From NCBI GenBank assembly GCA_032718475.1, contig JAUCBJ010005757.1:1-39652 (forward strand): a stretch of DNA of 39,652 nucleotides, read 5' to 3'. The stretch is from Nemertoderma westbladi. Its lineage: Eukaryota; Animalia; Xenacoelomorpha. The notes under the pieces were generated by a model. That model was given only the letters and a program-made list of their open reading frames with translations, was not told where the DNA came from and searched no databases. Below are positions 3,178 to 37,686 of this stretch, in pieces; the stretch's first letter is position 1; each line of letters starts with the position of its first letter. A program made the position numbers and the translations under genes.

Positions 3178-5388
3178 ATGGGGGCGGGTGTGGGTACTGT
3201 GGGTGCGGGTGTGGGTACTGTGGGGGCGGGTGTGGGTACTGTGGGGGCGGGTGTGGGTACAGTGGGGGCGGGTGTGGGTACTGTGGGGGCGGGTGTGAGT
3301 ACTATGGGGGCGGGTGTGAGTACTATGGGGGCGGGTGTGGGTACTGTGGGGGCAGGTGTGGGTACTGTGGGGGCGGGTGTGGGTACTGTGGGGGCGGGTG
3401 TGGGTACTGTTGGGGCGGGTGTGAGTACTATGGGGGCGGGTGTGAGTACTGTGGGGGCGGGTGTGGGTACTGTGGGGGCGGGTGTGGGTACTGTGGGGGC
3501 GGGTGTGGGTACTGTGGGGGCGGGTGTGGGTACTGTGGGGGCGGGTGTGAGTACTATGGGGGCGGGTGTGATGACTATGGGGGCGGGTATGGGTACTGTG
3601 GGGGCGGGTGTGGGTACTGTGGGGCGGGTGTGGGTACTGTGGGGGCGGGTGTGGGTACTGTGGGGGCGGGTGTGAGTACTATGGGGGCGGGTGTGAGTAA
3701 TATGGGGGCGGGTGTGGGTACTGTGGGGGCGGGTGTGGGTACTGTGGGGGCGGGTGTGGGTACTGTGGGGGCGGGTGTGGGTACTGTGGGGGCGGGTGTG
3801 GGTACTGTGGGGGCGGGTGTGGGTACTGTGGGGGCGGGTGTGGGTACTGTGGGGGCGGGTGTGGGTACTGTGGGGGCGGGTGTGATGTACTGTGGGGGCG
3901 GGTGTGGGTACTGTGGGGGCGGGTGTGGGTACTGTGGGGGCGGGTGTGGGTACTGTGGGGGCGGGTGTGGGTACTGTGGGGGCGGGTGTGAGTACTATGG
4001 GGGCGGGTGTGAGTACTATGGGGGCGGGTGTGGGTACTGTGGGGGCGGGTGTGGGTACTGTGGGGGCGGGTGTGGGTACTGTGGGGGCGGGTGTGGGTAC
4101 TGTGGGGGCGGGTGTGGGTACTGTGGGGGCGGGTGTGGGTACTGTGGGGGCGGGTGTGGGTACTGTGGGGGCGGGTGTGGGTACTGTGGGGGCGGGTGTG
4201 GGTACTGTGGGGGCGGGTGTGGGTACTGTGGGGGCGGGTGTGGGTACTGTGGGGGCGGGTGTGGGTACTGTGGGGGCGGGTGTGGGTACTGTGGGGGCGG
4301 GTGTGGGTACTGTGGGGGCGGGTGTGGGTACTGTGGGGGTGGGTGTGGGTACTATGGGGGCGGGTGTGGGTACTGTGGGGGCGGGTGTGGGTACTGTGGG
4401 TGCGGGTGTGGGTACTGTGGGTGCGGGTGTGGGTACTGTGGGGGCGGGTGTGGGTACTGTGGGGGCGGGTGTGGGTACTGTGGGGGCGGGTGTGGGTACT
4501 GTGGTGGCGGGTGTGAGTACTATGGGGGCGGGTGTGAGTACTGTGGGTGCGGGTGTGGGTACTGTGGGGGCGGGTGTGGGTACTGTGGGGGCGGGTGTGG
4601 GTACTGTGGGGGCGGGTGTGGGTACTGTGGGGGCGGGTGTGGGTACTGTGGGGGCGGGTGTGGGTACTGTGGGGGCGGGTGTGGGTACTGTGGGGGCGGG
4701 TGTGGGTACTGTGGGGGCGGGTGTGGGTACTGTGGGGGCGGGTGTGGGTACTGTGGGGGCGGGTGTGGGTACTGTGGGGGCGGGTGTGAGTACTATGGGG
4801 CGGGTGTGGGAACTGCGGGGGCGGGTGTGGGTACTATGGGGGCGGGTGTGGGTACTATGGGGGCGGGTGTGGGTACTGTGGGGGCGGGTGTGGGTACTGT
4901 GGGGGCGGGTGTGGGTACTGTGGGTGCGGGTGTGGGTACTGTGGGGCGGGTGTGGGTACTGTGGGGGCGGGTGTGGGTACTGTGGGGGCGGGTGTGGGTA
5001 CTGTGGGGGCGGGTGTGGGTACTGTGGGGGCGGGTGTGGGTACTGTGGGGGCGGGTGTGGGTACTGTGGGGGCGGGTGTGGGTACTGTGGGGGCGGGTGT
5101 GGGTACTGTGGGGGCGGGTGTGGGTACTGTGGGGGCGGGTGTGGGTACTGTGGGGGCGGGTGTGGGTACTGTGGGAGCGGATGTGGGTACTGTGGGGGCG
5201 GGTGTGAGCACTATGGGGGCGGGTGTGGGTACTGTGGGGGCGGGTGTGGGTACTATGGGGGCGGGTGTGGGTACTGTGGGGGCGGGTGTGGGTACTGTGG
5301 GGGCGGGTGTGGGTACTGTGGGGGCGGGTGTGGGTACTGTGGGTGCGGGTGTGGGTACTATGGGGGCGGGTGTGGGTACTGTGGGTGC
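3178..5388. repeat. 21-bp G-rich minisatellite, about 105 copies, in kinesin intron 3
   Basis: Unit GGGGGCGGGTGTGGGTACTGT with few variants. The long ORFs here are repeat artefacts. Confidence 0.97.
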
Positions 5389-5468: not shown

Positions 5469-5584
5469 CTTGGTATAATTCCAACTTGAGTTGGTGGATC
5501 AATAATCCCTTGCATTGTAAACGACTTGCCACATCCAGTTTGTCCATAAGCAAACACCGTAGAATTATAACCTTCTGGAACACT
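5469..5584 (-). CDS. KIF17: Kinesin-2 (KIF17/OSM-3-like) coding exon 3, containing the P-loop
   Basis: ccttag acceptor and AG|GTAATA donor. Length 116 nt. Translates [38 protein letters not shown](R), with Walker A GQTGxGKS and the kinesin GIIPR motif. I found no exon 4 in the window, so the gene continues past the left edge. The subfamily call comes from motif recall only. Confidence 0.92.
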
Positions 5585-5732
5585 CTAAGGAAGTTTAAAA
5601 AAATAAAATAAGAATAAAAATAATATTAAATATAATAAAATATACTAATTTAAAATAATATAATAATAATAAAATAATAAATAACTTAAATGTAATGAAA
5701 AAATAAATAAATATATAATATAATAAATATAC

Positions 5733-5912
5733 TCTTACTTTTTTACAAGGGGGTCTTACTTTTGTACCAGGAGGATCTTACTTTTGTACCAGTAGGTTCT
5801 TACTTTTGTACCAGTAGGTTCTTACTTTTGTACCAGGGGGACACACTTTTGTACTAGAGGGGTCTTAGTTTTGTACCTGGGGCCTTACTTTTATACCAGG
5901 GGGGTCATACTT
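5733..5912. repeat. ~22-bp short tandem repeat, CTTACTTTTGTACCAG core
   Basis: About 8 degenerate copies of (T)CTTACTTTTGTACCAG(G/T)NGG. Confidence 0.8.
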
Positions 5913-6079
5913 TTATCAGGTTACATTCACTTTTATATTTTTCATGAAAATTGTAAAGATATTAAATATCGAAGCACAATAAGTGTTTACAATATAGATT
6001 ACGGTACAGCGTTTATGTTATATGGGATCGAAGTTATTCTCTATAGAGTTTCTTTGCGGTCTCGTCTGAACTCGTTGAG

Positions 6080-6482
6080 ATCTATGATGGTGGAACAACA
6101 CCCGCAATCCTCCAACAAGGAGAGATAGGCTGACGCAGTGGCTACAACACGGGTGATGAACCGCCACCGACAGGCAAGGCAAAACGCGAGGCCCACGTAC
6201 GCACAGTGGGGGTCCACTGCTGCCACCCCCGCGAGACGATCAACTTCCGCACCGAACTTCTGGGCCTTGTCCTCTGAGAATGCGGTGCGATACTCCTCAA
6301 TGCGAACAACCATGCCGCGCAGCTCGTGGCCTGTGGTGTTGATGGCAACACCAGAGTTGGCGAAAAGAATCTCAGCCTCTTCCAATATTGCCTCTTTCAC
6401 TGCCAGGTGACATTTGTATGGTAAGTAGCCGAAGTGTGGACCACTTGTTGTGGCGACCTCTAGGAAGCGTCGGAGGTCAGTA
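6080..6482 (-). pseudogene. Non-LTR retrotransposon RT C-terminal fragment (CRE-like)
   Basis: Translates ...GPHFGYLPYKCHLAVKEAILEEAEILFANSGVAINTTGHELRG...AEVDRLAGVAAVDPHCAY. This resembles the GPxxGYxP..K..LxVK and LAxxAxxxPHxAY motifs that follow the YADD in CRE-clade elements. It is a GC-rich island truncated by the satellite. Confidence 0.6.
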
Positions 6483-6489
6483 AGTTTTC

Positions 6490-9400
6490 ACTGGTCAATA
6501 AAAACTTACAGATACACTGGTCAATAAAAACGTACAGAAACACTGGTCAATAAAAACTTACAGATATACCTTGTCAATGAAAACTTACAGATACACTGGT
6601 GTATAAAGATTTATCAATACATGGTGTTTTAAAACTTACAGATACACTGGTCTATAAAAACTTACCGATACACTGGTGTATAAAAAATTACAGATCCACT
6701 GGTCTATAGAAACTTACCGATACACTGGTCTATAAAAAATTACAGATACACTGGTGTATAAAAACTTACATGTACACTGGGTCTATAAAAACTTACAGAT
6801 ACACTGGTGTATAAAAACTTACAGATACACTGGTGTATAATAATTTACAGATACACTCACTGGCGTATAAAATCTCACCGATACACTGGTGGATAATAAA
6901 AACTTACAGATACACTCGCTGGTGTATAAAAACATACAGATACACTGGTGTATAATAACTTACTGATACACTGGTCTATAAAAACTTACCGTTACACTGG
7001 TGTATATAAACTTACAGATGCACTGGTGTTTAAAACTTACAGATACACTGGTGTATAAAAACTTACCGATACACTGGTGTATATAAACTTACAGATACAC
7101 TGGTTTATAATAACTTAAAGAAAAACTGGTGTATAATAACTTACAGATACACTGGTGTATAAAAACTTACAGATACACTGGTGTATATTAACTTACAGAT
7201 ACACTCACTGGTGTATAAAAACTTACAGATACACTGGTCTATAAAAACTTACCGTTACACTGGTGTATATAAACTTACAGATACACTGGTGTTTAAAACT
7301 TACAGATACACTGGTGTATAAAAACTTACCGATACACTGGTGTATATAAACTTACAGATACACTGGTTTATAATAACTTAAAGAAAAACTGGTGTATAAT
7401 AACTTACAGATATACTGGTGTATAAAAACTTACAGATACACTGGTGTATATTAACTTACAGATACACTCACTGGTGTATAAAGACTTACCGATACACTGG
7501 TGTATATAACCGTACAGATACACTGGTCTATAAAAACTTACCGTTACACTGGTGTATATAAACTTACAGATACATTGGTGTATAAAAACTTACAGATACA
7601 CTGCTGCATAATAACTTACAGATACACTCACTGGTGTTTAAAACTTACAGATACACTCGTGTATAATAACTTACAGATACACTCACTGGTGTATAAAAAC
7701 TTACCGATACACTGGTGTATAATAACTTACAGATACACTCACTGGTGTATAAAACTTACCGATACACTGGTGTTTAAAACTTACAGATACACTGGTGTAT
7801 AATAACTTACAGATACACTCACTGGTGTATAAAAACTTACCGATACACTGGTGTATATAACCTTACAGATACACTGGTGTTTAAAACTTACAGATACACT
7901 GGTGTATAATAACTTACAGATACACTAACTGGTGTATAAAAACTTACAGATACACTGGTGTATAATAACTTACAGATACACTCAATGGTGTTTAAAACTT
8001 ACAGATACACTGGTGTATATAACCTTACAGATACACTGGTGTTTAAAACTTACAGATACACTGGTGTATGATAACTTACAGATACACTCACTGGTGTATA
8101 AAAACTTACCGATACACTGGTGTATATAAACTTACAGATACACTGGTCTATAAAAACTTACCGTTACACTGGTGTATATAAACTTACAGATACATTGGTG
8201 TATAAAAACTTACAGATACACTGGTGTAGTATAATAACTTACAGATACACTGGTGTATAATAACTTATAGATACACTCACTGGTGTTTAAAACTTACAGA
8301 TACACTGGTGTATAATAACTTACAAATAAACTCACTGGTGTATAAAAACTTACAGATACACTGGTGTATAATAACTTACAGATACACTCAATGGTGTTTA
8401 AAACTTACACCTACACTGGTGTATAATAACTTACAGATACACTCACTGGTGTATAAAAACATACAGATACACTGGTGTATAGTAACTTACAGATACACTC
8501 AATGGTGTTTAAAACTTACAGATACACTGGTGTATAATAACTTACAGATACACTCACTGGTGTATAAAAACTTACCGATACACTGGTGTATATAAACTTA
8601 CAGATACACTGGTCTATAAAAACTTACCGTTACACTGGTGTATATAAACTTACAGATACATTGGTGTATAAAAACTTACAGATACACTGGTGTAGTATAA
8701 TAACTTACAGATACACTGGTGTATAATAACTTACAGATACACTCACTGGTGTATAAAAACATACAGATACACTGGTGTATAATAACTTACAAATACACTC
8801 ACTGGTGTATAAAAACTTACAGATACACTGGTGTATATTAACTTACAGATACACTCAATGGTGTTTAAAACTTACAGATACACTGGTCTATAAAAACTTA
8901 CCGTTACACTGGTGTATATAAACTTACAGATACATTGGTGTATAAAAACTTACAGATACACTAGTGTATAATAACTTACAGATACATTCACTGGTGTTTA
9001 AAACTTACAGATACACTGGTGTATAATAACTTACAGAACCACTCAATGGTGTATAAAAACTTACAGATACACTGGTGTATAATAACTTACAGATACACTC
9101 GCTGGTGTATAAAAACATACAGATACACTGGTGTATAATAACTTACAGATACACTCACTGGTGTATAAAAACATACATATACACTGGAGTATAAAAACTT
9201 ACAGATACACTGGTGTATATTAACTTACAGATAAACTCAATGGTGTTTAAAACTTACAGATACACTGGTCTATAAAAACTTACCGTTACACTGGTGTATA
9301 TAAACTTACAGATACATTGGTGTATAAAAACTTACAGATACACTGGTGTATAATAACTTACAGATACACTCACTGGTGTTTAAAACTTACAGATACACTG

Positions 9401-12400
9401 GTGTATAATAACTTACAGAACCACTCAATGGTGTATAAAAACTTACAGATACACTGGTGTATAATAACTTACAGATACACTCACTGGTGTATAAAAACAT
9501 ACAGATACACTGGTGTATAATAACTTACAGATACACTCACTGGTGTATAAAAACATACACATACACTGGTGTATAATAACTTACAAATACACTCCCTGGT
9601 GTATAAAAACTTACAGATACACTGGTGTATATTAACTTACAGATACACTCAATGGTGTTTAAAACTTACAGATACACTGGTCTATAAAAACTTACCGTTA
9701 CACTGGTGTATAATAACTCACCGATACACTGGTGTATAAAAACTTACAGATACACTCAATGGTGTATAAAAACTTACAGATACACTGGTGTATAATAACT
9801 TAGAGATACACTCACTGGTGTATAAAAACATACAGATACACTGGTGTATAATAACTTACAGATACACTCACTGGTGTATAATAACTCACCGATACACTGG
9901 TGTATAAAAACTTACAGATACACTGGTGTATATTAACTTACAGATACACTCAATGGTGTTTAAAACTTACAGATACACTGGTCTATAAAAACTTACCGTT
10001 ACACTGGTGTATAATAACTCACCGATACACTGGTGTATAAAAACTTACAGATACACTCACTGGTGTATAAAAACTTACAGATACACTGGTGTATAATAAC
10101 TTACAGATACACTCACTGGTGTATAAAAACATACAGATACACTGGTGTATAATAACTTACAGATACACTCACTGGTGTATAATAACTCACCGATACACTG
10201 GTGTATAAAAACTTACAGATACACTGGTGTATATTAACTTACAGATACACTCAATGGTGTTTAAAACTTACAGATACACTGGTCTATAAAAACTTACCGT
10301 TACACTGGTGTATAATAACTCACCGATACACTGGTGTATAAAAACTTACAGATACACTCACTGGTGTATAAAAACTTACAGATACACTGGTGTATAATAA
10401 CTTACAGATACACTCAATGGTGTTTAAAACTTACAGATACACTGGTGTATAATAACTTACAGATACACTCACTGGTGTATAAAAACATACAGATACACTG
10501 GTGTATAATAACTTACAGATACACTCAATGGTGTTTAAAACTTACAGATACACTGGTGTATAATAACTTACAGATACACTCACTGGTGTATAAAAGCATA
10601 CAGATACACTGGTGTATAATAACTTACAGATACACTCACTGGTGTATAAAAACATACAGATACACTGGTGTATAATAACTTAGAGATACACTCACTGGTG
10701 TATAAAAACATACAGATACACTGGTGTATAATAACTTACAGATACACTCACTGGTGTATAAAAACATACAGATACACTGGTTTATAATAACTTACAAATA
10801 CACTCACTGGTGTATAAAAACTTACAGATACACTGGTGTATATTAACTTACAGATACACTCAATGGTGTTTAAAACTTACAGATACACTGGTCTATAAAA
10901 ACTCACCGTTGCACTGGTGTATATAAACTTACAGATACAATTTGTGTATAATAACTTACAGATACACTCACAGGTGTATAAAAACATACAGATACACTGG
11001 TGTATAATAACTTACAGATACACTCACTGGTGTATAAAAACATACAGATACACTGGTGTATAATAACTTACAGATACACTCAATGGTGTATAAAAACTTA
11101 CCGATACACTGGTGTATATTAACTTACAGATACACTCACTGGTGTATAAAAACATACAGATACACTGGTGTATAATAACTTACAGATACACTCACTGGTG
11201 TATAAAAACATACAGATACACTGGTGTATAATAACTTACAGATACACTCAATGGTGTATAAAAACTTATCGATACACTGGTGTATATTAACTTACAGATA
11301 CACTCACTGGTGTATAAAAACATACAGATACACTGGTGTATAATAACTTACAGATATACTGGGTCTATAAAAACTTACAGATACACTGGTGTATAAAAAC
11401 TTGCAGATACACTCACTGGTGTATAAAAACATACAGATACACTGGTGTATAATAACTTACAGATACACTCAATGGTGTATAAAAACTTACCGATACACTG
11501 GTGCATATTAACTTACAGATACACTCACTGGTGTATAAAAACATACAGATACACTGGTGTATAATAACTTACAGATATACTGGTCTATAAAACCTTACCA
11601 ATACACTGGTGTATAAAAACTTACAGATACACTGGTGTATAAAAACTTGCAGATATACTGGGTCTATAAATACTTACAGATACACTGGTGTTTAAAACTT
11701 ACAGATACACTGGTGTATAATAACTTACAGATACACTCACTGGTGTATAAAAACATACAGATACACTGGTGTATAATAACTTACAGATACACTCAATGGT
11801 GTTTAAAACTTACAGATACACTGGTGTATAATAACTTACAGATACACTCAATGATGTATAAAAACTACCGATACACTGGTGTATAATAACTTACAGATAC
11901 ACTCACTGGTGTATAAAAACATACAGATACAATGGTGTATAATAACTTACAGATACACTCAATGGTGTATAAAAACTTACCGATACCCTGGTGTATAATA
12001 ACTTACAAATACACTCACTGGTGTATAAAAACTTACAGATACACTGGTGTATAATAACTTACAGATATACTGGGTCTATAAATACTTACAGATACACTGG
12101 TGTATAATAACTTACAGATATACTGGTCTATAAAACCTTACCGGATACACTGGTGTATAAAACCTTACCGGATACACTGGTGTATAAAAACTTACAGATA
12201 CACTGGTGTACAAAAACTTGCAGATATACTGGGTCTATAAATACTTACTGATACACAGGTGTATAATAACTTACAGATACACTGGTCTATAAAACCTTAC
12301 CGATACACTGGTGTATAAAACTTACTGATACACTGGTGTATAAAAAACGATAAAAACTTACAGATACACTCACTGGTGTTTAAAACTTACAGATACACTT

Positions 12401-13668
12401 TTGTATAAAAACTTACTTATTGGTCTATATACTTACAGATACATTGGTGTATAATAACTTACAGATACACTCAATGGTGTATAAAAACTTATCGATACAC
12501 TGGTGTATATTAACTTACAGATACACTCACTGGTGTATAAAAACATACAGATACACTGGTGTATAATAACTTACAGATATACTGGGTCTATAAAAACTTA
12601 CAGATACACTGGTGTATAAAAACTCGCAGATACACTCACTGGTGTATAAAAACATACAGATACACTGGTGTATAATAACTTACAGATACACTCAATGGTG
12701 TATAAAAACTTACCGATACACTGGTGCATATTAACTTACAGATACACTCACTGGTGTATAAAAACATACAGATACACTGGTGTATAATAACTTACAGATA
12801 TACTGGTCTATAAAACCTTACCAATACACTGGTGTATAAAAACTTACAGATACACTGGTGTATAAAAACTTGCAGATATACTGGGTCTATAAATACTTAC
12901 AGATACACTGGTGTTTAAAACTTACAGATACACTGGTGTATAATAACTTACAGATACACTCACTGGTGTATAAAAACATACAGATACACTGGTGTATAAT
13001 AACTTACAGATACACTCAATGATGTATAAAAACTACCGATGCACTGGTGTATAATAACTTACAGATACACTCACTGGTGTATAAAAACATACAGATACAA
13101 TGGTGTATAATAACTTACAGATACACTCAATGGTGTATAAAAACTTACCGATACACTGGTGTATAATAACTTACAAATACACTCACTGGTGTATAAAAAC
13201 TTACAGATACACTGGTGTATAATAACTTACAGATATACTGGGTCTATAAATACTTACAGATACACTGGTGTATAATAACTTACAGATATACTGGTCTATA
13301 AAACCTTACCGGATACACTGGTGTATAAAACCGTACCGGATACACTGGTGTATAAAAACTTACAGATACACTGGTGTATAAAAACTTGCAGATATACTGG
13401 GTCTATAAATACTTACAGATACACAGGTGTATAATAACTTACAGATACACTGGTCTATAAAACCTTACCGATACACTGGTGTATAAAACTTACTGATACA
13501 CTGGTGTATAAAAAACGATAAAAACTTACAGATACACTCACTGGTGTTTAAAACTTACAGATACACTGGTGTATAAAAACTTACCTATTGGTCTATATAC
13601 TTACAGATACATTGGTGTATAATAACTTACAGATATACAGGTGTATAAAAACTTACCGATACACTGGT
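6490..13668. repeat. 7.2-kb satellite of 26/30-bp units derived from the exon 2 donor junction
   Basis: Unit TAAAAACTTACAGATACACTGGTGTA, with a +CTCA variant; roughly 260 copies. In gene sense it reads ACACCAGTGTATC(T/G)|GTAAGT, matching the exon 2 end ATACCAGTGTATCG|GTAAGT. Confidence 0.97.
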
Positions 13669-13776
13669 ATATCCCACATCGTTATACATCTGTTCGGTTG
13701 TTGAATCAACTCCGTAACTCCCATCGAATGTGAACATCTTCGATAGTTCACCCTTCTTATCATCCTTGTTCCTAAT
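13657..13776 (-). CDS. KIF17: Kinesin-2 (KIF17/OSM-3-like) coding exon 2
   Basis: tttgttag acceptor and TCG|GTAAGT donor. Length 120 nt, phase 0/0. Translates IRNKDDKKGELSKMFTFDGSYGVDSTTEQMYNDVGYTSVS; the FTFDGxY...TEQxYN motif resembles KIF17. Not present as such in the ORF track. Confidence 0.9.
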
Positions 13777-13864
13777 CTAACAAAATAAATAGTTGTACCG
13801 ACGGATAATTTTATAAGTTGCGTTGCGATGCGAATTGCCGACTGTAATAATTTTACGATCATCT

Positions 13865-14283
13865 AAACAATACCGAACTTACCCCACAAATCCCGCCATC
13901 TCGGTCACAAACAATACCGAACTTACCGCACAAATCCCGCCATCTCGGTCACAAACAATACCGAACTTACCGCACAAATCCCGCCATCTCGGTCACAAAC
14001 AATACCGAACTTACCGCACAAATCCCGCCATCACGGTCACAAACAATACCGAACTTACCGCACAAATCCCGCCATCACGGTCACAAACAATACCGAACTT
14101 ACCGCACAAATCCCGCCATCACGGTCACAAACAATACCGAACTTACCGCACAAATCCCGCCATCACGGTCACAAACAATACCGAACTTAACGCACAAATC
14201 CCGCATCTCGATAACAAACAATACCGAACTTACCGCACAAATCCCTCCATCTCGATAACAAACAATACCGAACTTACCGCACA
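13865..14283. repeat. 44-bp tandem repeat, about 9.5 copies, at the start of intron 1; units carry TGTGCG|GTAAGT
   Basis: Unit AAACAATACCGAACTTACCGCACAAATCCCGCCATC(A/T)CGGTCAC. It begins exactly at the exon 1 donor. Confidence 0.95.
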
Positions 14284-14418
14284 TGTGCCGCGCTCCGAAT
14301 CTGTAGTGATTACGTCTTCTGTACCGGCGTTTTTTTCCCTCGCGTTCATCGGTCGACACCGGCACACCACCCGGACCGATTCCTCGTCCTTGGCGACTCC
14401 ACTCCCATTGCGCCCCAT
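14278..14418 (-). CDS. KIF17: Kinesin-2 (KIF17/OSM-3-like) coding exon 1
   Basis: ATG at 14418. Translates MGRNGSGVAKDEESVRVVCRCRPMNAREKNAGTEDVITTDSERGTCA, which carries the kinesin motor N-terminal motif V(R/K)VxxRCRP. Length 141 nt, ending at the GCG|GTAAGT donor in phase 0. Confidence 0.9.
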
Positions 14419-15111
14419 CGCCCCGGTAACAATTCGCACCACCGAGTACGAAATCAGGCTAAATAAGTTTAGAAAATTAGAACAGAATAATAAAGTTATT
14501 ATTTCATTTTCAAGCCTGTCGCAAAATGTGTAGTCTACGAAAATTGATTCAATGGGTTTTTCAACGTCAACAGTGTTTAGAGAAGAACCCCGAAATATAT
14601 TTATACCACCTAGTTTTTGCCACATTTTTAAATTTCCATTAAAAATTTTGTTTTCAAATTTTTTCAAAATTTGAAGCCTATAAATAAATGGTAAGCTTAT
14701 GTAAAATAAATTTCATAGTTTTCTATCATCAATACCAAAAAAATAACATTTTTTTTTAAACTAATTAAAACCAACTATCATTAAATTATTTTAATATAAT
14801 TAGCAAATACTAGCTACTACTCGCTCCCATAATATCACAAATGTGATGGCGTTGAACTTTATTAATCAATACAAAATAAGGTGGCATATATATAAATAAT
14901 ATTTGGAGGTCTATGTTCTCAAATCTAGTAGTCCTAATAGCTAGCTAGTAAGAAGAGTTTGCCTTCGAATTTTTCAAGAGCAAAAACTCGAGGTGTTCAT
15001 ATTGTACATGTACAATGTACGTACATGTACATATACATACTAAATGATACATTAAAAATTCCATCTTTACAATAAAATGCCAACATACCAGAGAAAATAT
15101 TCGTTGATTAA

Positions 15112-15523: not shown

Positions 15524-16779
15524 TGTAGGGATACCATCCAGAGCGGACTCATTACTACGTGGCTCGCCCCAATATGGTAGTCCTTGTGCATACACCATTT
15601 GTGTCTACTGTTGACGGTGACACAGAACCATTTGAAGTGTTATGGGGCGTCCTCCAAGGAGACACACTTGCACCATTCTTGTTCATTATTGTGGTTGACT
15701 ATGTTCTACGCATGTCCTTAGATCATTATAATGATGATGGAGTGATGATAACTCCACCTACTGGCTCCAGAAGTCGAGGAAATCCTGCCAAGTACCTAAC
15801 TGATCTAGACTTTGCTGATGACTTAGGAGTACTCTCAGAATCATTAGAGGGAGCCCAACGGCTCCTCAGCACATTAGAACATGCTGCTTCTAGTGTTGGT
15901 CTTTTTATTAACTCCAGAAAGACCAAAATTCTGACAGTTAACTTTGAAAGTCCTCAGCAAGTCTCTGATCGGATGAGCATAAGCTCAAAGGATGGTATGC
16001 TTGAGCATGTGGACGACTTCTGTTACCTGGGATCATGGATCCGGAAGTCAGGTGAGGACCTTCGAATACGTAAGGGAAAGGCTTGGGCAGCCTTGAATAG
16101 GCTTTCCAGGATTTGGAAGTCACCGAGAATTAATCGGAAACTTAAGGTCCGATTATTTAGAGCAGCAGTAGTTCCAGTACTCCTCTATGGGAGTTCATGC
16201 TGGGCTCTAACTGCTGAGGACACCAAATCTCTGGATGGCACATTCACAAGAATGCTACGCCGGGTTCATTGTGTCAAGTATAATGCACACATCTCCGACC
16301 AGACATTATATAACATTGGAGGTGTCTCATTGGTTCCCCCAAGCTTGACACTAGAACAAAATCGCCTCCGCTTTGCAGGACATGGAGTGAATAAGCATGG
16401 TGGACAGCCCATGACTTTCTTGAGACGCATCTTAAAGGACACTGGCCTTGAAGATGCGGATGATCTAGCAAATGTCATGGGTGATAGGGAGTTGTGGCGG
16501 TGTAATTTTGTTGACAAGCCGGCACAGCATTCTTAAAAATGCAGCTGCAATGCAGCATGCCGATCCTAGTAGTAGTGCATACACCAATATACTTTCAGTA
16601 TCACGGGGTAGACAACAGTCAGACAGTGTGGGATACTGTAGGTTGTACGTTGTGTGCTGTACTGCAGTACAGTACCGCCTAGCTAACAACAGCACCACTT
16701 ACCAGTTATAATAACAATATACAAATACAATATGATTGCAGCCCGATAGTTGTATTTTCCGGCTCATCATATTACCACA
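15524..16779 (+). repeat. Gypsy 5' LTR, containing a LINE insertion
   Basis: TGTAGGGATACC...ATTACCACA. Matches the 3' LTR on both sides of a 977-bp insert. Confidence 0.93.
15598..16574 (+). mobile_element. 5'-truncated RTE-like LINE inserted in the Gypsy 5' LTR
   Basis: Open RT frame to 16536 with GVLQGDTLAPFLF, LDFADDL and FCYLGS. TAGTAGTA tail. 12-bp TSD GTGCATACACCA at 15586-15597 and 16575-16586. Confidence 0.93.
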
Positions 16780-17105
16780 TGGCACAGTGCTCAGTAACCG
16801 CTACGGAGTTCAGCAGTTGAACCGCGGGAAGTTTCCCCATCTGCCGGACCTAGTAAGCGTACTGCCTACTGCTACTACCGCACGGCGCGATGTCCACACG
16901 CAGTCAAACACATCGCCTAGATGATATCGGTACACTTTCCGATGACGAGATATTGCGAAGCACCGAACCCACTATCCAGAGCGACCTGGAACAGGTCCGC
17001 CTCCATATGGAGCAGTAGCGCGCAGAAGCTGCTCAATGCAATGCCGCTGCTGACGCCCGGGTAACGCAACTAACTCTGCTCCTTCTAAATCACCAGGATG
17101 CCGCA

Positions 17106-17997
17106 TTGCAACAACAGGCTGCTGCGGACGCGCAGATCGCGCAGCTACTCGCTGCACTCCAGGAGGGCGCAGCCCATCATGGTGGTGCAGCTCCGGTGCC
17201 CCACGCCGAGGGACCGGTTCCCATTCCACAACCACGTCGCCGCGTTATAGACCTTCAAGGACTGGAGAAGATAGACGGCGACATCGAGTTTACCTCTTTC
17301 TGTCGGTGGCACCAGGCCTGGCGGGTGCACACTCACCGCAAGCAGGCCTCAACCTTCCCGCGCAGCGAGCAGGTATATGCGCTCGTTTCTGCACTCGGGG
17401 GGGACATACAGCAGACTCTCACAGTCACTCTTGGTGTCGACATCAACCACGCTGACACCACGACCGAGTTCATCCTCGACGCCTTACAGACGCACCTCCG
17501 GTCTAAGCGCAACATTGCCATCGACGGAATTAAATTCTACAACTGGAGGCAGGGCCCGAACGAATCGTTCGATTCATTCCGGATTGCCCTCGAGGAACTC
17601 GCCGACGACGCCAAACTCTGCATTCACTGCCGGTACCAGCAGATCGTGAACCCAGATCCTCGTCGGAGTCGGGTCTTCCGAGACATGAACTGAGCTGCTG
17701 AAGGTCCTCCCCCAACCAACTCTCGAAGACTGCGTTCGTATCTGCCAGTCTTTCGAGGCGAGCGAGCGCAACGACACGATCATCGGCCGCGGTAAGCCGA
17801 TCACCAAGGTGGCATCTACCGACAAACGCAGACGCGGCCCTATCCAACAGCCGTCCACATCGCGATCATACAGTGCCGTGGGTGCGTGTCGGAACTGTGG
17901 AAGGAAGCACCCTATGGGGAGAGCGAACTGTCCCACTAAGGACGCACAGTGCAAACAATGCGGCACACTTCAAGGGGAGCTGTTGATCTGGGCCTGA
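17106..17997 (+). pseudogene. Gypsy gag (frameshifted)
   Basis: RQGPNESFDSF major-homology-like motif and zinc knuckles CRNCGRKH...C and CKQCG, split over several frames. Confidence 0.8.
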
Positions 17998-18136
17998 CTC
18001 CAGAGGTAAACCCAAAACTAAAGGGCCATCAGGGGTCAACACGATTACAGGAGGCAGAGCGACAATAAACTCAATCAGCTTCGCGTGCATTCTCCCCCGC
18101 ATAACGGTCTACGTCTTTGGCCTCAATAACGACGAG

Positions 18137-21100
18137 GTGTGCGGAAAGATCCACAACGTCCTCGCAGACAGTGGCACGGCCTCCAAAATCCTGAACCAGG
18201 ACATTTACAGTCGGATGGGCGGCAGTACCCGGGATCTCATACAGCATCCCTCCGCGGATCTACGCGCTGCCAACCACCTCCCTCTCGAAATCATGGGACT
18301 CTTTCCGGCCAGAGTCGATCTCGCCAGAAGTCGACGGGTTGATCCTCTCCTTCCAGGCAATCAATGACTTCAAACTCATCCACCCCGACTTCCCTCAACC
18401 CATCGCCTCAGTAACAGCGGTGAAGGCATCAATTGCCCTCCCATAGATCCGCACGAATCTGCTCCACGAGTTCGACAATGTTTTTGATGACTCCAACAAA
18501 CCGCTCGGCATGATGGCTGGCGATCCGATGCGGATCGAGTTGAAGGAGGGCGCGACTCCATTCCACGCCAACAGTGCACGACCGATCCCCTTCGCGTTGC
18601 GAGATGAAGTCCAGGCACAACTCTGTGAAATGGAACAGCGCGGAGTAATCGAGCGGGTCACTGAACCCACGGACTGGGCCCACCCGCTCACCGTCGCACA
18701 TAAACCCAGCGGGAAACTCTGGGTTTGCGTGGACCTCTGCCACCTAAACAACCAGGTGAAGCGGCCATACTACCCCACCCCAAGCCCGCGGGTGGCAGTA
18801 ACAGGGATTTCGACTACACTACAGCGCAGATCTTCTCTGTGTTTGATGCGGCCTCTGGCTATTGGCAGGTCCCCCTTGAGTCAACATCCCAACTCCTCAC
18901 CACATTTGTCACCCGTGGGGGCGTTACAAATATATGAGGAGTGTGACGAGACTCATTTCAAGCGGGGACGAGTTCAATCGATGATGCGCTGCGAGGCCTT
19001 CCACACATGGTAAAAGTCGTCGACGATGTGTTGCTATACAGTGACAACCTCGACGACCGCATTGCCAGTGTCCGGAAGTTCCTCCAGCGCTCCCGGGAAG
19101 CCGGCATCTCACTGAACCCCGACAAGATCCAGTTCGCCCAATACGAAGTCAAGTTTGCGGGTTACGTCGTCGGGGCTGATGGAATCAGGGCTGACCCGGC
19201 CAAGGTACGGGCCATTGCGGGTTTCCCTCAACCGACCAACATCACCGACTTGCGGAGTTTCGTCGGGTTGGTCGAGCAACTCGCCCCATTTTCAACAGAC
19301 ATTTCCTCTATGATGTCCCCTCTCTGACCCCTCCTCCGGTCCCACAACACATACCATTGGAACTCAGACCACGAGAAGGCATTCTCAGTGATGAAACGCG
19401 CCCTAGTCTCCACACCCATCCTCGCTCACTTCGAGCCTGAACTCGATACAACACTCGAGACCGACGCCTCCCGGATGAGTGGGTTGGGGTACGCTCTCCT
19501 CCAGCGGCACGGAACCGACTGGAGGCTCGGCGAGTGTGGCTCCCGTTTTATAACGGATATGGAGTCGCGCTACACGATGGTGGAGCTCGAGTTGCTCGCC
19601 ATCGCCTGGGCCACCCACAAGTGTCGCCTATACCTTGTGGGCCTCCCTCACTTCAAACTGGTGGTGAACCACCAGCTGCTGGTGTCAATCCTGGACCACC
19701 AGACTATCGACACCACGGACAACACGAGGATCCAGCAGTTGAAATCCAAACTGTCATCATATGTATTTACAACCATATGGAGGAAGGGGAAGGAACACCA
19801 CATCCCCAACGCGTTGTCCCGATCACTAGTGGACGACCCGACCTCCGACGATCATGTCGGCGACGGGGACATGGGCCACTATCTACATGCTGTGACGTCA
19901 CAGGCGGCCGACGTCATACTGTAGGACTCTGACTCGGCGGAATACAACCCCGACCACCCCCTCTGCACATTGGCAATGACGGCACATAGCGACCCCGACT
20001 ACATCGCCCTCCTCAACGCCATTCAGGCTGGGTTCCCGCCACCCTCCCGCCAACTCCTAGGAGTCCAACCCTACTGGTCCATCCGGGACAAACTCTCAGC
20101 CGACCACGACTTGGTGCTGTACGGACAGCGAATCGTGGTCCCGCAGGCCACACGATGGGAAACACTGGCTCGCCTCCACACCGCCCACCAGGGAGTCAAA
20201 AAGACTCTGCTGCGGGCCCGTCAGACCGTCTACTGGCCCGGGCTAACTAATGACATCCGGACTACCATCGCCTCATGCGAGCCGTGCATAACATGCCGGG
20301 CCAGCCTCACCAAGGAGCCACTCCTACGGGACCGCGAGGCCACATGGCCGTTCGAGAAGATCGCAGGTGATCTTTTCAAACTCAATGGCAAACACTACCT
20401 CGCCACTGCGGACCGCTACTCAGTGTGGCCCGAGGTATATGGGTACAGAAGCTACCCCACGGCCACCTCCACAGCCGCACACATCCGGGACATCTTCACC
20501 CGGTTCGGTGTCCCCACGCGTTTCGCTTCTGATGGCGGCCCACAGTTCTCGGGAAAGAACTTTACGGATTTCCTAAGTGTCTGGGGAGTCGAGCCTATCA
20601 CATCCTCCCCAGTTTACCCACAGAGTAACGGCCTTGCGGAGTCCGCTGTCAAGGCGACTAAGGTGTTACTAACTAAGACAGGGGGGAAACTGGACTCATC
20701 GTCATTCCAGGAGGGACTCCTGGAACTTCGCAACTTCCCCCGCGCCCATGGAAAGTCGCCGGCTGAGATCCTGTTTGGCCACCTGGTACGCACTCGGGTG
20801 CCTACACATAGCCGGGCTTTCCTCGCCAACCACCAGACGACCCGCACGGAGCTCGACCAGGCAGTGCCCTTGCTCCTAAAATCCCAGACAGCCACATACA
20901 ATCGTGGCGACGACCCCTACCCCCCTTAGCGGTAGAGGCACCTGTGCGGGTTCAGAACCCCACATCGAAACGTTGGGACCGCACCGGGGTCATTGTGGAA
21001 TCAAATCCCAACCGGAGGTACAGCGTTCGGACGCCTTCCAGTCGGTGTCTCACCCGCAACTGCCGCCACCTCATCCAGGACACGGCCACTGGCATCAACG

Positions 21101-21141
21101 ACGGCTCCAGCGCAGCCACAGAAGGGCGTTCACTGGGCTGA
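18137..21141 (+). pseudogene. Gypsy pol: protease, RT, RNase H, integrase (frameshifts and stops)
   Basis: PR LADSGT. RT WAHPL..., VCVD, FDAASGYWQ and VVDDVLLY. RH TDAS...ELELLAI...NALSR. IN HTAHQG...CEPC, SDGGPQF and PQSNGLAE. Confidence 0.92.
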
Positions 21142-21247
21142 CGAACAAGCCAGTGGGTCCCCCGATCAGCCACGCCACCGAAGGCAACCGCCCAATAGAC
21201 TATGATAGTTTGTGGATTGTGGGTGCACCAACAAACTAGAAAGGGGG

Positions 21248-21486
21248 TGTAGGGATACCATCCAGCCCGGACTCATTACTACGTGGCTTGCCCAAATATG
21301 GTAGTCCTTGTGAATACACCAATATACTTTCAGTATCATGGGGTAGACAACAGTCAGACAGTGTGGGATACTGTAGGTTGTACGCCTAGCTAGCAGCAGC
21401 ACCGCTTACCGGTTATAATAACAATATACAAATACAATATGATTGCAGCCCGATAGTTGTATTTTCCGGCTCATCATATTACCACA
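21248..21486 (+). repeat. Gypsy 3' LTR, 239 bp
   Basis: TGT...ACA. Differs from the 5' LTR by about 10 substitutions and one ~28-bp indel (counted by eye). Confidence 0.93.
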
Positions 21487-21491
21487 TCACC

Positions 21492-21753: not shown

Positions 21754-22224
21754 ACTCCATCTACTTCCAACATCCCCTGTCCACCCACTCCATCTACCTC
21801 TGACATCCCCTATCCACTAACTCCATCTACCTCTGACATCCCTGTCCACCAACTCCAACTACCTCTGACATCCCATGTCCACCCGCTCCATCTACCTCTG
21901 ACATCCCCTATCCACTAACTCCATCTACCTCTGACATCCCTGTCCACCAACTCCAACTACCTCTGACATCCCATGTCCACCCACTCCATCTACCTCTGAC
22001 ATCCCATGTCCACCCACTCCATCTACCTCTGACATCCCCTGTCCACCAACTCCATCTACATCTGATATCCCTGTCTACCCACTCCATCTACCTCCAATGC
22101 TCCCTGTCCACCCACTCCATCTACCCCATCTCCTGTTCATCTACTACATCTACCTCCGACATCCCCTGTCCACCCACTCTATCTACCTCCGATATCCCCT
22201 GTTCATCTACTCCATCTACCTCCA
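21754..22224. repeat. ~32-33-bp C-rich minisatellite, about 14 copies
   Basis: Unit ACTCCATCTACCTCTGACATCCC(C)TGTCCACCC. Confidence 0.9.
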
Positions 22225-25597: not shown

Positions 25598-26832
25598 TGT
25601 AAAAGCCTTTGCTGAATTGCCCCGTTATTTTTATTATCTTTTACATTAAAATACTCTGTAGTTGATTTAATAAGTGTAAGAGACCGTATTATTGCTGTAT
25701 CGGTGTTTTTAGAGGATCTAAGACCCATTTCCTCTGTATGTGTACTGTGAAAGGCATATTTTATGATTCTATGGCAATTCGTGACGCAAAAGGGTGATAG
25801 CTACTCTTGAACAGTAGTTACTATGACTACGGTTAACAGCTGACATTCATACGTGTTGATTTCCTTTGTTCTACGGCGTCTCTCAGTTCAGTCAGCCAAT
25901 GAGAGCGTTTTTGTGGCTCCTTGTACAGAGAATTTCCGAGAAATGACGAAATGCCTATGTGCAGTGTTTATCATTCAGTCTTGAGCCAAAGAAAGAACGG
26001 CTTAGAAATATTTTGTGCTGTACTGCTTTTTAGTCGTACACTGGTAGGTTTAATTAAAAAGGGCATATATCCTTTAACTGACTGATTGATATATTCAAAA
26101 CAACTGACTACTTGAATATCTCATGCCTATGTGCACTGACATACCGGTACTGAATTGTTGTTTTATACTGCTATTTGCTGTCAGTTCTTCATAATATGGT
26201 TGATGAATTATTATATTTGGAATAACGATAAATAACCCCGCAACCCAATATTCTTGATATACCGAAGGTAAGAGAGAAAGGTTACCAATAACGATTGTGA
26301 CTTGTGTTAAAGTGGTTTGAAGTGAATCTAATGTTATTTGATAGACCCTACATGAGTCAGCCTGTGTTCCTTTTATATGTGACTAAAATCAGTGAAGATT
26401 GGCAGATTAGTGTGCAGTATTGTGCAGCATAGTGTATGAGTGAGTCTGTTAAAGAAGCAATTCCTAAAGAATGCGCCATATATGTGGATTATAATTAAGC
26501 CATATCGTTGTGAGTAGTTTAAGTCATAACTCTGTTTATGTAGATAAAGCGCCACGTCCTAAAGGAACTGTTAATATTACCGAAGGTGAATAATATTGTC
26601 AGAGATTATATAATACTGTCAGTCGAATAATACATTAGGCTTACATAGCAATACAAATTAAACCGTCGAACCCAATCTCCCGGGAATATCCAGCGGGTGA
26701 ATGGTCGCGCACGGATTGGTTTCGACTAGTGTAGTGAATCAAATACTTGTCATAGACTAAAAAGCAGATTTATTATCTAGAAGACATTCTAATTTGGCGG
26801 GTTAAACTGCCAAAGGTCTGAAAGCGCGAACA
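25598..26832 (+). repeat. BEL/Pao 5' LTR
   Basis: TGTAAAAGCC...GCGCGAACA. About 3 mismatches to the 3' LTR seen by eye. Confidence 0.95.
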
Positions 26833-27124
26833 TTAAAGGATATTGCTTCTTTATTGCAGTAAGCAATAAAGTTGAAAGTACCGGTCAACCGGTAAACCTG
26901 AACAGTACACCTGTAGGTCAGTAGGCCCAACCGCTAGAACCGGTACTGCCGTATAAGTACACTAGTATTATTCGATTTGATTGTTGTATACCGGTAGGCT
27001 GTTTAGGGGATTAGGGATTGATCACCCCTTATACCTTTATATGGTTTACTTATTTCTGTCAAGTTTTATTTATTTGTAGGCCAGTATTGAACAGAAGGCG
27101 TGTAAGCCTGATCAGATTGTACAG

Positions 27125-27695
27125 ACGATTTGTAGGCTAAGCTGTTGTCTGATTGCTGTTAAGTCCGAACGGATTGCAGTGTGTGTAGATCACCTGTCCG
27201 ATTAAGTACGATTAGGCAGTAGGGGCAGTGAACACTGTAAGGTAAACCCCCAACTAAAGAATAAGTCGCACTACTGGGTTAGAGCGCATACTCCCTAATC
27301 ATTTCGGAGTCTGCATGTCCTGTAGTTTATTTAGGCTTGAGAGTAGTCTGCCATCGTTTAGTCTGTACTTTGTTTGTGTAAGTCTGTACGGGTAGCGTAT
27401 AATTTTATTTAGATAATTTGTAGGCTGGATAGTTGTCTGGCTGTTATTAGGTCTGAACGGATTGCCGCGTGTGTAGATCATCTGTCCGATTAAGTACGAT
27501 TAGGCAGTAGGGGCAGCGAACGCTGTAAGGTAATCCCCCAACTAAAGAATAAGTCGCACTACTGGGTTAGAGCGCATACTCCCTAATCATTTCGGAGTCT
27601 GCATATACCGTAGTTTGTTTAGGCTTGATAGTAGTCTGTCAGTGTTCGGTCTGTATTTTGTTTGAGTAGTTTGTACGCGTAGCGTAATATTTATT
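27125..27695. repeat. ~288-bp tandem duplication in the BEL 5' leader
   Basis: GAACGGATTGC...GGAGTCTGCAT occurs at about 27167 and 27455, with a nearly identical core of about 150 bp. Confidence 0.85.
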
Positions 27696-29019
27696 ATTCA
27701 GAGTTTATGCGATTATCCGCAACATTCATTCCCCAAGTTTGTTCCTACAGTAATTGTGTTTGTTATACATACCGCTATAGTTAAATTAACCCCGGTACTA
27801 CACGGGCTGCTCGGCGTAGGTAAAGACTGGTGATTTTGTGCATCGGTCACTCCAGCAGATGCCGTGGTTCTTTTAGCTGTTCAAGTATATTTAACTACTG
27901 ATTGTCTGTTATATAAGTACTCGTACCTAATTTAGGGTTTAGTGTACAGTACTTTCCGAAGTAATTATTGTAGACATTATATTTGTGTTGTAAAGTGGTT
28001 GATAGGCACATTCGATTAGCTCTATTAACTTCTAGGTAGGAACACTCCGTGATACATAACGTAGAACCTATAGCGATACGGCTATAGGTCGTCAGGCGGT
28101 GGTATTTTCCTATCTAGACAACGCAGTGTATTTACTACTACTTATTATTTCAAATACCGTAGTACCCTGTCCGTTGTAATAACCGGTTATCTAACCCTTT
28201 GTTAGGCTGGTTTGTAGACTTCTTGTAAAAAATTACCCTAAAAATTCGTATTTTGTGTTTTTTGTAAATTTTTGCATTTATTTAGAGATTGTAATCTCAC
28301 CCGAATTGTACGTAATTTGTAGTATTAAGTAACTTAGGTAAATTAGAATTATTTGTTTTAGTGTCCTATACGTAACACTTCACTGAAAGCGCACCGCTTT
28401 GTGTAGTGATTACTCCCCAGAAATAATAACATTTATTTCAAACATAGACAAAACCCATTAAAACGGGTATATATATATTATAAATCAAATCTAACGATTT
28501 ATAAATAGTAGGCCTACCATACAACCATTAGGTCTCAATATCAGTTGGATTACTGCTCAAATAACGGTAGTAAAGTAAGTAAAGTAACCAAGTAACCCTA
28601 AAATACAGAAATTCAATTATTTAAAATAATTGATATACCGGTATTTACGATAGGCCTATTATCTTTATTTCTATAAATTTAGGCTGAAATTATACCGGTA
28701 CTTATAATTAATTCTAGTCCAGAATTATATATACTACAAACTGTAAACTGTATACCGGTATTCCCGATAGGCCTATTATATATTTATATATATTTGTGCT
28801 AAAATTATACCGGTATTCTGTGATGAACCTAGTCTGTAATAATACTTATATAGTTATATATACCATAAGCATACCGGTGTTCTAATATATTATATATATA
28901 TCCTACTACACTGAGTAGCAGTAACGGTAATTAATTACTAGGCTAGCAGTTCATACTGAGTTACTAGACTTGCTTAGACTGTAATATAGCAGTAGGCATT
29001 CAACTGTACATACCTAGTC

Positions 29020-35000: not shown

Positions 35001-35095
35001 TGCGTAAGAAAGACTAACTGTTTAGAGTATCTTTATGTTTTAGAAACTGTGATTTTTATATTTTATAGACTGAAAATCCCATTTTCTGGGAGCGG

Positions 35096-37095: not shown

Positions 37096-37686
37096 GGAAG
37101 CAGGACAATTCGGTCCCGGACAATTCGGTCCGGACAATTCGGTCCCGGCCAATTTTGTCCAGGACAATTCGGTCCCATTAATTTTGTGTTTTGGGACCGA
37201 ATTGTCCGGGACCAAATTGCCTGGACCGAATTGTCCGAATACTGACTAGGACAATTCGGTCCCAAAACATGCATATTAATGGGACCGAATTGTCCGGGAC
37301 CGAATTTGTCAGGGACCGAATTATCCGGGACCGAATTGTCCGGGACCGAATTGTCCGGGACCGAATTGTCCGGGATCGAATTATCCGGGACCAAATTTAA
37401 TTGGTACTACTGTACTATATAATGGTGAATGTTCTAGAAACTTAAAAAGATATTATGGTAGCTAGTGGTTTTTTTACTAGCTAGCATTTTTTTGAAAATA
37501 AAAAAATCTTACTTTTTTTTGTTAACATTATAAGTTATTATGGTGTTTTTATGGAGCTTGTTGTCGGTTTGTGCTTGGACCGAATTGTCCGGGACCGAAT
37601 TGTCCGGACCGAATTGTCCGGGACCGAATTGTCCGGACCGAATTGTCCGTTGACCGAATTGTCCGGAACCGAATTGTCCGACATCC
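37096..37686. mobile_element. Mutator-like MITE, 591 bp
   Basis: TIRs GGAAGCAGGACAATTCGGT and ACCGAATTGTCCGACATCC. Perfect 9-bp TSD AGTCCCGCC at 37087-37095 and 37687-37695. Many GGACCGAATTGTCC subterminal repeats in both orientations. Confidence 0.85.

What the first reader, a model, noticed from the sequence alone, without database searches (positions are those of the whole stretch)
6490..14283. Two consecutive introns each open with a tandem array of their own exon-end plus 5' splice site
Seen: intron 1 starts with 44-bp units ending TGTGCG|GTAAGT, and exon 1 ends TGTGCG|GTAAGT. Intron 2 starts with 26/30-bp units reading ACCAGTGTATC(T/G)|GTAAGT, and exon 2 ends ACCAGTGTATCG|GTAAGT. The two units are otherwise unrelated, so the same architecture arose twice independently in one gene. 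Inference: a lineage-level mechanism amplifies donor junctions and drives intron growth. It could be splice-site-anchored slippage or repair, or selection for arrays of U1 sites. The spliceosome must also choose the first of hundreds of near-identical donors.
Basis: partly seen in the sequence, partly recalled or inferred. Interest (0 to 1): 0.85.

Follow-up and report, generated by a model that had tools for sequence, protein, structure and literature searches.

The report
Splice-donor repeat arrays in kinesin gene
In an animal's kinesin motor gene, the ends of two neighbouring exons, each with its splice signal, are copied head-to-tail 9 and about 260 times into the next intron; this is an unusually large case of a repeat type known from lancelets and humans, likely tolerated because the first signal would still be used, and the exon end beside the big array encodes odd residues that the repeat may have overwritten.

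Summary
A minus-strand KIF17/OSM-3-like kinesin gene has two consecutive introns opening with arrays of their own exon end plus GT donor: 9.5 x 44 bp, and about 263 x 26/30 bp (7.2 kb, with block duplications up to 1.2 kb). The units are unrelated. The exon 2/array junction is identical in contigs of two samples, and the intron 2 position is shared with 12 of 16 homolog fragments. No RNA holder was listed, so donor use is untested. The architecture is known: lancelet 'mirages' and human F7, CBS and IFI6 minisatellites, where mostly the first donor is used; this array is ten times larger than any in the papers I read. The scan already noted it on many other pieces of this genome (unreviewed) and in a shark gene. 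'Hundreds of near-identical donors' is overstated: 15 of 262 copies match at -3..+6, and 212 have lost the -1 G. New lead: exon 2 ends T-S-V-S where 123 homologs mostly read P-[LIV]-V-[ED], exactly over the 12 bases shared with 25 copies (p about 0.01 at this site, 0.34 anywhere). The array may have overwritten coding sequence; no close orthologue was available to test it.

The parts
14278..14418 (-). Exon 1 CDS of a KIF17/OSM-3-like kinesin-2 (47 codons, phase 0 end)
   Evidence: best solved-structure hit KIF3B, E 3.6e-05; tblastn of KIF17 homologs
13865..14283 (-). Array 1: 9.5 x 44 bp, unit = at least 18 bases of diverged exon 1 end + donor + intron start
   Evidence: last 6 exon bases exact in 8 of 9 copies, bases -18..-7 match 7 of 12 in register (shuffle p 0.01; a gapped test over a longer stretch gave p 0.11)
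13777..14277 (-). Intron 1, 501 nt, GT-AG; position not seen in homolog fragments, likely lineage-specific
   Evidence: 10 of 10 informative genomic-looking fragments run through this place without a break (read by eye)
13657..13776 (-). Exon 2 (40 codons, phase 0 end)
   Evidence: best solved-structure hit OSM-3, E 1.2e-04; identical in single-copy contigs of X1 and X2/X3
13657..13668 (-). Last four codons of exon 2 (T-S-V-S), identical to the end of 25 array copies and atypical for the family
   Evidence: T 2 of 123, S 0 of 123, V 119 of 123, S 0 of 123 homologs
6489..13672 (-). Array 2: about 263 units of 25-30 bp (12-16 exon bases + donor + intron start), with block duplications
   Evidence: exact repeats of 396 bases at offset 1223 and 312 at offset 301
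5585..13656 (-). Intron 2, 8072 nt, GT-AG, at an old phase-0 position
   Evidence: 12 of 16 homolog fragments read V and then diverge right after [LIV]V[ED]
6477..6493 (+). Inverted partial unit closing the distal end of array 2
   Evidence: 17-base arm, 82-88% complementary to array units
6041..6487 (-). 148-codon open frame abutting the array end, possibly a retroelement fragment
   Evidence: no Pfam hit; Atlas nearest clusters unnamed, one at 0.90 with RVT_1 on 13% of members: a lead only
5469..5584 (-). Exon 3 with the P-loop (phase 2 end); its donor has no array
   Evidence: Pfam Kinesin E 4.9e-12; best solved-structure hit OSM-3, E 2.9e-11
3179..5385 (-). Internal control: 105 x 21 bp array in intron 3, starting 83 bases after the donor and not made of the junction

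Best explanation
Two short stretches spanning an exon end and its splice donor stand in tandem copies in introns 1 and 2 of a KIF17/OSM-3-like gene; each likely began as a local duplication, likely grew by ordinary minisatellite slippage and unequal exchange, and is likely tolerated because splicing would keep using the first donor. Shown: the architecture, two unrelated units, block duplications, decay of most copies at -1, and stops early in the read-through of both introns. Inferred: a duplication that spans a donor leaves the exon and the first donor intact and pushes all extra copies into the intron, so it escapes purifying selection, whereas a wholly exonic duplication would not; any slip to a later donor gives a frameshift (copy 2 in both introns) or includes a stop (all later copies), so such RNA would be removed rather than make a new protein. 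Array 1 is homogenised apart from the exon copy; array 2 has satellite-like higher-order turnover. Why such arrays seem common and large in this genome is not explained by this locus.
For: Anatomy. Block duplications at offsets 168-2005, exact runs up to 396 bases. Array 1 units 97% alike but 5-7 of 18 bases different from the exon end, like the boundary exclusion described for lancelet mirages (PMC3087553 passages). Stops at intron base 46 (intron 1) and 28 (intron 2) in frame. F7 minigenes use the most upstream donor even against stronger copies up to consensus value 91 (PMC1557585). Neither core is found outside the arrays in the window at up to 3 mismatches in 18 (0 of 172 and 0 of 10 hits outside). 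11 of 12 loose ends of contigs laid on the exon 2 junction match array 2 itself, the twelfth is a blend of two contigs (compared by eye). No special RNA fold at either junction (z -0.38 and -0.12), so no masking structure is needed or seen. P-loop and other core motifs are intact and 125 codons are open.
Against: First-donor use is borrowed from mammalian minigenes and lancelet RT-PCR, not shown here. 31 of 248 GT-intact copies in array 2 pair with U1 as well as or better than the real donor by a simple count, the first only 72 bases downstream (13584, 8 of 9 against 7 of 9), and IFI6 and CBS do use second and third copies (PMC1557585 introduction). Harmlessness is in doubt because 3 of the last 4 codons of exon 2 break conserved columns, and the protein breaks 11 of 79 conserved columns against 0-8 in 122 of 123 homologs. 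Passive survival alone does not explain why donors in this genome seem to seed arrays so often (unreviewed).
Confidence: 0.65

Rival explanations
1. Same origin, but not harmless: array 2 drifted, and an in-frame conversion or unequal exchange then put a repeat copy's end in place of the last four codons of exon 2, so today's donor is array-derived and the protein was changed.
For: The exact match between exon and copies stops at -12 (25 of 262 copies match 12 bases, none longer; the -13 base is shared by 0-1% of copies), which is the border between typical residues (Y 61 of 123, F 59) and T-S-V-S. 3 of 4 conserved columns there are broken against 8 of 75 elsewhere (Fisher p 0.008; 0.018 if five columns are counted). 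Reaching this end from Y-P-L-V-E needs 5 substitutions in 12 bases.
Against: The cluster is not unusual if any window may count (p 0.34), and the test was framed after seeing it. The protein is divergent throughout, including exon 3 (P, S and V at columns where homologs have them 0, 1 and 0 times in 122-123). From Y-T-I-V-E only 3 substitutions are needed, T occurs in 2 of 123 homologs, and compensating indels are no cheaper. Exon 1's end shows no such break and differs from its array. The units show no clear trace of an older P-L-V-E reading. No close orthologue was found.
Confidence: 0.18
2. The gene copy is under relaxed selection or decaying, so both the arrays and the odd residues accumulated because little depends on its splicing.
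For: 11 of 79 conserved columns broken, more than any KIF17-like homolog in the set (maximum 8, apart from one outlier with 23). No fourth exon within the 5.4 kb left in the window.
Against: No stop or frameshift in 125 codons, all four splice sites of introns 1 and 2 canonical, core motifs intact; exon 2 identical in two samples. A long-branch lineage would look the same. Unreviewed notes report the same arrays in essential genes such as PRPF8.
Confidence: 0.07
3. The arrays are selected U1-binding or decoy-donor platforms that protect long introns or tune expression through unproductive splicing.
For: 248 of 262 and 8 of 9 copies keep GT; 198 GTAAGT in intron 2; both arrays point the same way as the gene.
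Against: GT is no better kept than neighbouring unit bases (-9..-2 at 91-98%, +1/+2 at 97-98%), and the -1 G is lost in 217 of 262. Orientation follows from origin by duplication. Intron 1 would be about 100 bases without its array and need no protection; intron 3, longer than 5.4 kb, has none.
Confidence: 0.05
4. The 26-bp unit is a foreign minisatellite that landed in the end of exon 2 and happened to supply an in-frame donor at the old position.
For: Would explain T-S-V-S; the unit has an internal quasi-palindrome and ends in an inverted copy next to a possible retroelement fragment; a 22-bp array further down the intron has donor-like starts preceded by bases that can be read P-L-V-Q.
Against: No copy elsewhere in the window; loose ends point only into this array; the new donor would have to fall exactly on the old phase-0 position; array 1 repeats the design with another unit; no canonical P-[LIV]-V-[ED] plus donor remnant above chance in the window (5 hits at 2 mismatches, 3.6 expected).
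Confidence: 0.05

Closest known systems
Lancelet 'mirage' minisatellites (Adh3, globins BflGb6 and BflGb9, troponin C, PGBD5). Seen: matching passages of PMC3087553 and PMC3902484; the original Adh3 and troponin C papers and the supplements were not seen.
   Same: Tandem units spanning an exon-intron boundary, many but not all keeping the splice signal; several loci in one lineage; concerted evolution with boundary copies left out; Adh3 units 10-72 bp.
   Different: Copy numbers quoted there are 3-6 (BflGb6) against 9.5 and about 263 here; mirages there occur at both acceptors and donors, here at donors only; higher-order block duplications and an atypical exon end are not described in the passages read. 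Adh3 copy numbers were not seen and could narrow the gap.
Human junction-spanning VNTRs: F7 intron 7 (37 bp, 5-9 copies), IFI6/6-16 (25 pseudo-sites), CBS intron 13 (15-20), LMNB2 (10-15), PDGF intron 4 (16-18). Seen: abstract, passages and Discussion of PMC1557585; the other genes only as cited there.
   Same: First monomer holds the real donor, later monomers repeat it in the intron; mostly the upstream site is used.
   Different: One array per gene, at most 25 copies, identical pseudo-sites in F7; here two consecutive introns, ten times more copies, mostly weakened at -1; splicing not measured here.
Intron gain through tandem repeats at exon-intron boundaries (Rogers model as cited in PMC3087553; PMC2812944 passages)
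   Same: Tandem duplication that includes splice signals.
   Different: Intron 2 sits at an old position, and neither unit contains the start of the following exon or an acceptor, so these arrays lengthened existing introns and did not visibly create them.

Membership tests
Mirage / junction-spanning minisatellite | Tandem unit spans an exon-intron boundary | tested here: met
   12-16 exon bases in array 2; 6 exact and about 18 homologous exon bases in array 1
Mirage / junction-spanning minisatellite | First monomer holds the authentic donor | tested here: met
   By reading frame and homology, not RNA: in-frame join; intron 2 position shared by 12 of 16 homolog fragments
Mirage / junction-spanning minisatellite | Minisatellite-sized unit; many but not all copies keep the splice signal | tested here: met
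   44 and 25-30 bp; GT kept in 8 of 9 and 248 of 262
Mirage / junction-spanning minisatellite | Normal mRNA made from the first donor | not testable with these tools
Mirage / junction-spanning minisatellite | Length instability between alleles or cells | tested here: inconclusive
   Block duplications show past turnover; short-read contigs do not span the arrays
Mirage / junction-spanning minisatellite | Concerted evolution that leaves boundary copies out | tested here: met
   Array 1: units 97% alike, exon copy 5-7 of 18 different; array 2: distal units diverge, but its exon copy is not left out
KIF17/OSM-3 kinesin-2 | Kinesin motor start with P-loop, closest to OSM-3/KIF17 | tested here: met
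   Pfam PF00225; OSM-3 best for exons 2 and 3, KIF3B best for exon 1; P-loop cysteine as in 120 of 123 KIF17-like homologs. No tree was built
KIF17/OSM-3 kinesin-2 | Complete motor, stalk and tail | not testable with these tools
   Only three exons lie in the window; no genome held
Dispersed satellite or element-borne repeat | Same unit at other loci | tested here: inconclusive
   Absent elsewhere in the window, no look-alike among the scan's noted windows, loose ends internal (24 pieces shown, 38 not); whole genome not searchable
Intron gain by tandem duplication | New intron whose sequence is duplicated exon around a proto-splice site | tested here: not met
   Intron 2 is old; intron 1 may be lineage-specific but its unit and 3' end do not resemble exon 2's start or exon 1's end as the model needs

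The most novel reading that the evidence does not exclude
Splice-donor satellites feed back into coding sequence: turnover of the 7 kb intron array replaced the last four codons of exon 2 with a repeat copy in frame, changing P-[LIV]-V-[ED] to T-S-V-S in a conserved part of the kinesin motor. In a genome where many donors seed such arrays, exon ends would be repeat-driven hot spots of protein change, and the working donor would at times be a promoted copy.
Probability: 0.2. Interest if true: 0.75.

Novelty: new variant of a known kind. Interest (0 to 1): 0.45.

Why it matters
As a single locus it is a large example of a known oddity. Its value is as a natural test bed: whether first-donor choice holds against about 250 decoys in an invertebrate, with a stronger-looking donor only 72 bases downstream; whether donor-spanning duplications are a real route of intron growth in this lineage; and whether intron arrays can rewrite exon ends. 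The last point was not found in print by my searches and would link satellite turnover directly to protein evolution, but here it rests on one exon and a modest, after-the-fact statistic.

Tried and rejected
No whole genome is held, so the genome-wide enrichment test and a search for other copies of the units or of the gene could not be run. Sequencing runs (kind 'any', window 13640-14900): 6 runs listed, no RNA holder listed; this says nothing on expression. X5 laid nothing on exon 2. On exon 3 X1, X3 and X6 laid nothing although X1 and X3 hold the locus, so that blank is uninformative and the unusual exon 3 residues are unconfirmed; X5 gave one 50-base piece with 8 differences, read as another kinesin, and one low-complexity piece. 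Summed contig depth over the unit was 59-135 times the exon depth, below the 263 copies here, but the tool says this is no copy number, so it is not used as evidence. Searches for a close orthologue failed: exon 2 gave 1 hit of 2 candidates, exon 1 0 of 1, the representative search 19 hits of 44-68% identity; the 123 homologs are therefore distant and were gathered around P0001, not around this gene. Hairpin masking of donors: no fold beyond shuffles. A hidden canonical exon end elsewhere: none above chance (one search used a mis-spaced pattern and is void). Kinship of the 22-bp and 26-bp units: p 0.40 direct, 0.054 inverted, not accepted. Compensating frameshift as origin of T-S-V-S: not cheaper than substitutions. 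The blastn self-comparison collapsed the repeats and was replaced by the diagonal scan. No earlier notes near this locus, on a kinesin, or on look-alike DNA. No structure or complex prediction was run.
Full report
What is there. The minus strand carries the first three coding exons of a kinesin: 14418-14278, 13776-13657 and 5584-5469. They join in frame over two GT-AG introns of 501 and 8072 bases, both phase 0. Exon 3 hits Pfam Kinesin (E 4.9e-12). Exons 2 and 3 are closest to OSM-3 among solved structures, exon 1 to KIF3B, and KIF17/OSM-3 proteins from many animals align to all three exons and to nothing further in the window. I call it KIF17/OSM-3-like; no tree was built. The rest of the gene lies beyond the window start.

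The observation. TRF finds 9.5 copies of 44 bp at 13865-14283 and a 26-bp-based array at 6489-13672. In array 1 the nine later copies end like exon 1: 7 of 9 are identical at -3..+6, one has lost the GT and one differs at -2. Homology to the exon reaches about 18 bases, but with 5-7 differences, while the units are 97% alike (in-register test p 0.01, gapped test p 0.11). Array 2 has 262 copies after the real donor; 248 keep GT, 25 match the last 12 exon bases exactly, 15 match at -3..+6, and 212 have T at -1. Its units come in 25-30 bp variants arranged in duplicated blocks, with exact repeats of 396 bases at offset 1223 and 312 at offset 301. It ends in an inverted partial unit beside a 148-codon frame of uncertain, possibly retroelement, origin. 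The two units share only the donor.

Is it real and are these the true donors? The stretch from exon 2 into the first units is held letter for letter by one single-copy contig in each of three runs from two samples and two studies; one of these may be the source of the window. It is not an assembly artefact at that junction; array lengths are unconfirmed. The exon 2 donor lies at an old position: 12 of 16 short homolog fragments read V and then lose similarity right after [LIV]V[ED], as a frame running into a GT intron would. Intron 1 is different: 10 of 10 informative fragments run through that place unbroken (by eye), so it is likely lineage-specific. The same design has thus arisen at an old and at a likely young intron. 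The third donor has no such array, although its intron holds 105 copies of an unrelated 21-bp unit: this genome makes arrays in general, and only some are donor-made. Splicing itself could not be observed.

How it likely works. A short duplication across a donor leaves the exon and first donor whole and puts the extra copy in the intron; it can then expand like any minisatellite. The block structure fits slippage and unequal exchange (inference). Use of the second copy shifts the frame in both introns (44 and 26 bases), and every later copy brings in a stop at intron base 46 or 28, so mis-spliced RNA would be decay substrate (nonsense-mediated decay, from general knowledge). Neither junction folds better than shuffles. 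In human F7 the most upstream donor wins against identical and stronger copies short of a perfect consensus (PMC1557585, passages and Discussion); lancelet mirages do not disturb splicing (PMC3087553 and PMC3902484 passages). Against complacency: 31 of 248 intact copies match the recalled U1 consensus as well as or better than the real donor, one at 13584, and IFI6 and CBS do use early copies. Selection for U1 arrays is not supported: GT is no better kept than its neighbours and the -1 G is mostly gone, though one early mutation spread by homogenisation would give that too.

Exon 2 ends T-S-V-S where 123 homologs have P (113), L/I/V (123), V/I (123) and E/D (120). These four codons are exactly the 12 bases that 25 copies share with the exon; no copy matches further. 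Three of these four conserved columns are broken, against 8 of 75 elsewhere (p 0.008; 0.018 over five columns), but a cluster like this somewhere among 79 columns has p 0.34, the test was made after seeing it, the protein is divergent throughout (11 of 79 columns broken; homologs 0-8, one outlier 23), and exon 1's end shows nothing similar. Either the exon end was already odd when it was duplicated, or a drifted copy replaced it in frame. Three searches found no close orthologue to decide. I give the overwrite reading about 0.2.

Comparison and novelty. It meets the tested features of mirages and of human junction-spanning VNTRs; first-donor use and length instability are untested. It exceeds the copy numbers quoted in the papers read (3-25) about tenfold and has satellite-like higher-order structure; Adh3 numbers were not seen. 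The scan's own unreviewed notes describe the same design on many other pieces of this genome (66 of 79 noted windows fit the look-up, 8 shown; further ones) and in a shark gene; I did not check those loci, and they are selected windows, not an enrichment test. The word 'mirage' came to me from those notes; the two key papers were also returned by my own search. Searches for a genome-wide description or for arrays overwriting exon ends found nothing relevant, within an open-licence library only.

Verdict. Real; a larger variant of a known kind; mechanism most likely passive expansion with first-donor tolerance (0.65); interest 0.45, carried by scale, likely recurrence across the genome and the testable exon-overwrite lead.

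Noticed in passing
window 5733-5914 (minus strand): A third small array (8.5 x 22 bp) near the 3' end of intron 2 has donor-like starts, preceded by bases that can be read P-L-V-Q with two extra bases: possibly a relic of an older exon 2 end, more likely an unrelated minisatellite.
   Followed up: partly
window 13584 (minus strand): A copy 72 bases downstream of the real donor matches the U1 consensus at 8 of 9 positions against 7 of 9 for the real one: the best candidate for cryptic use.
   Followed up: partly
window 13777-14277: Intron 1 position is absent from 10 of 10 informative homolog fragments; without its array the intron would be about 100 bases.
   Followed up: partly
window 6204-6650 (approximate): In run X1 the contig covering the distal end of array 2 has depth 11.5 against 35.6 for exon 2: perhaps an allele-specific end.
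   Followed up: no
window 15524-21487: LTR retroelement with rve integrase (Gypsy-like label from recall), LTR pieces 93-96% alike; its first LTR is split by an RVT_1 element at about 15598-16575 with a repeated 12-base target and a (TAG)n tail. Several frames are broken.
   Followed up: partly
window 25598-36330: Second LTR element with about 1.2 kb LTRs, 99% alike over the 300 bases reported; a 1025-codon frame with DUF1759 and a weak protease hit but no reverse transcriptase hit (BEL/Pao-like label from recall), plus short unexplained frames at 33634-34038 and 34752-35147.
   Followed up: partly
window 37101-37680: Clusters of a 15-bp unit in both orientations, like a foldback element; further arrays at 2095-2449 (63 bp), 21754-22222 (33 bp) and 27128-27702 (288 bp) show a generally repeat-prone genome.
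   Followed up: no
window 13657-13776 and 5471-5584: The one-base-shifted frame that use of copy 2 of array 1 would open has no stop through exons 2 and 3 (read by eye), so the stop for that product lies further on.
   Followed up: no
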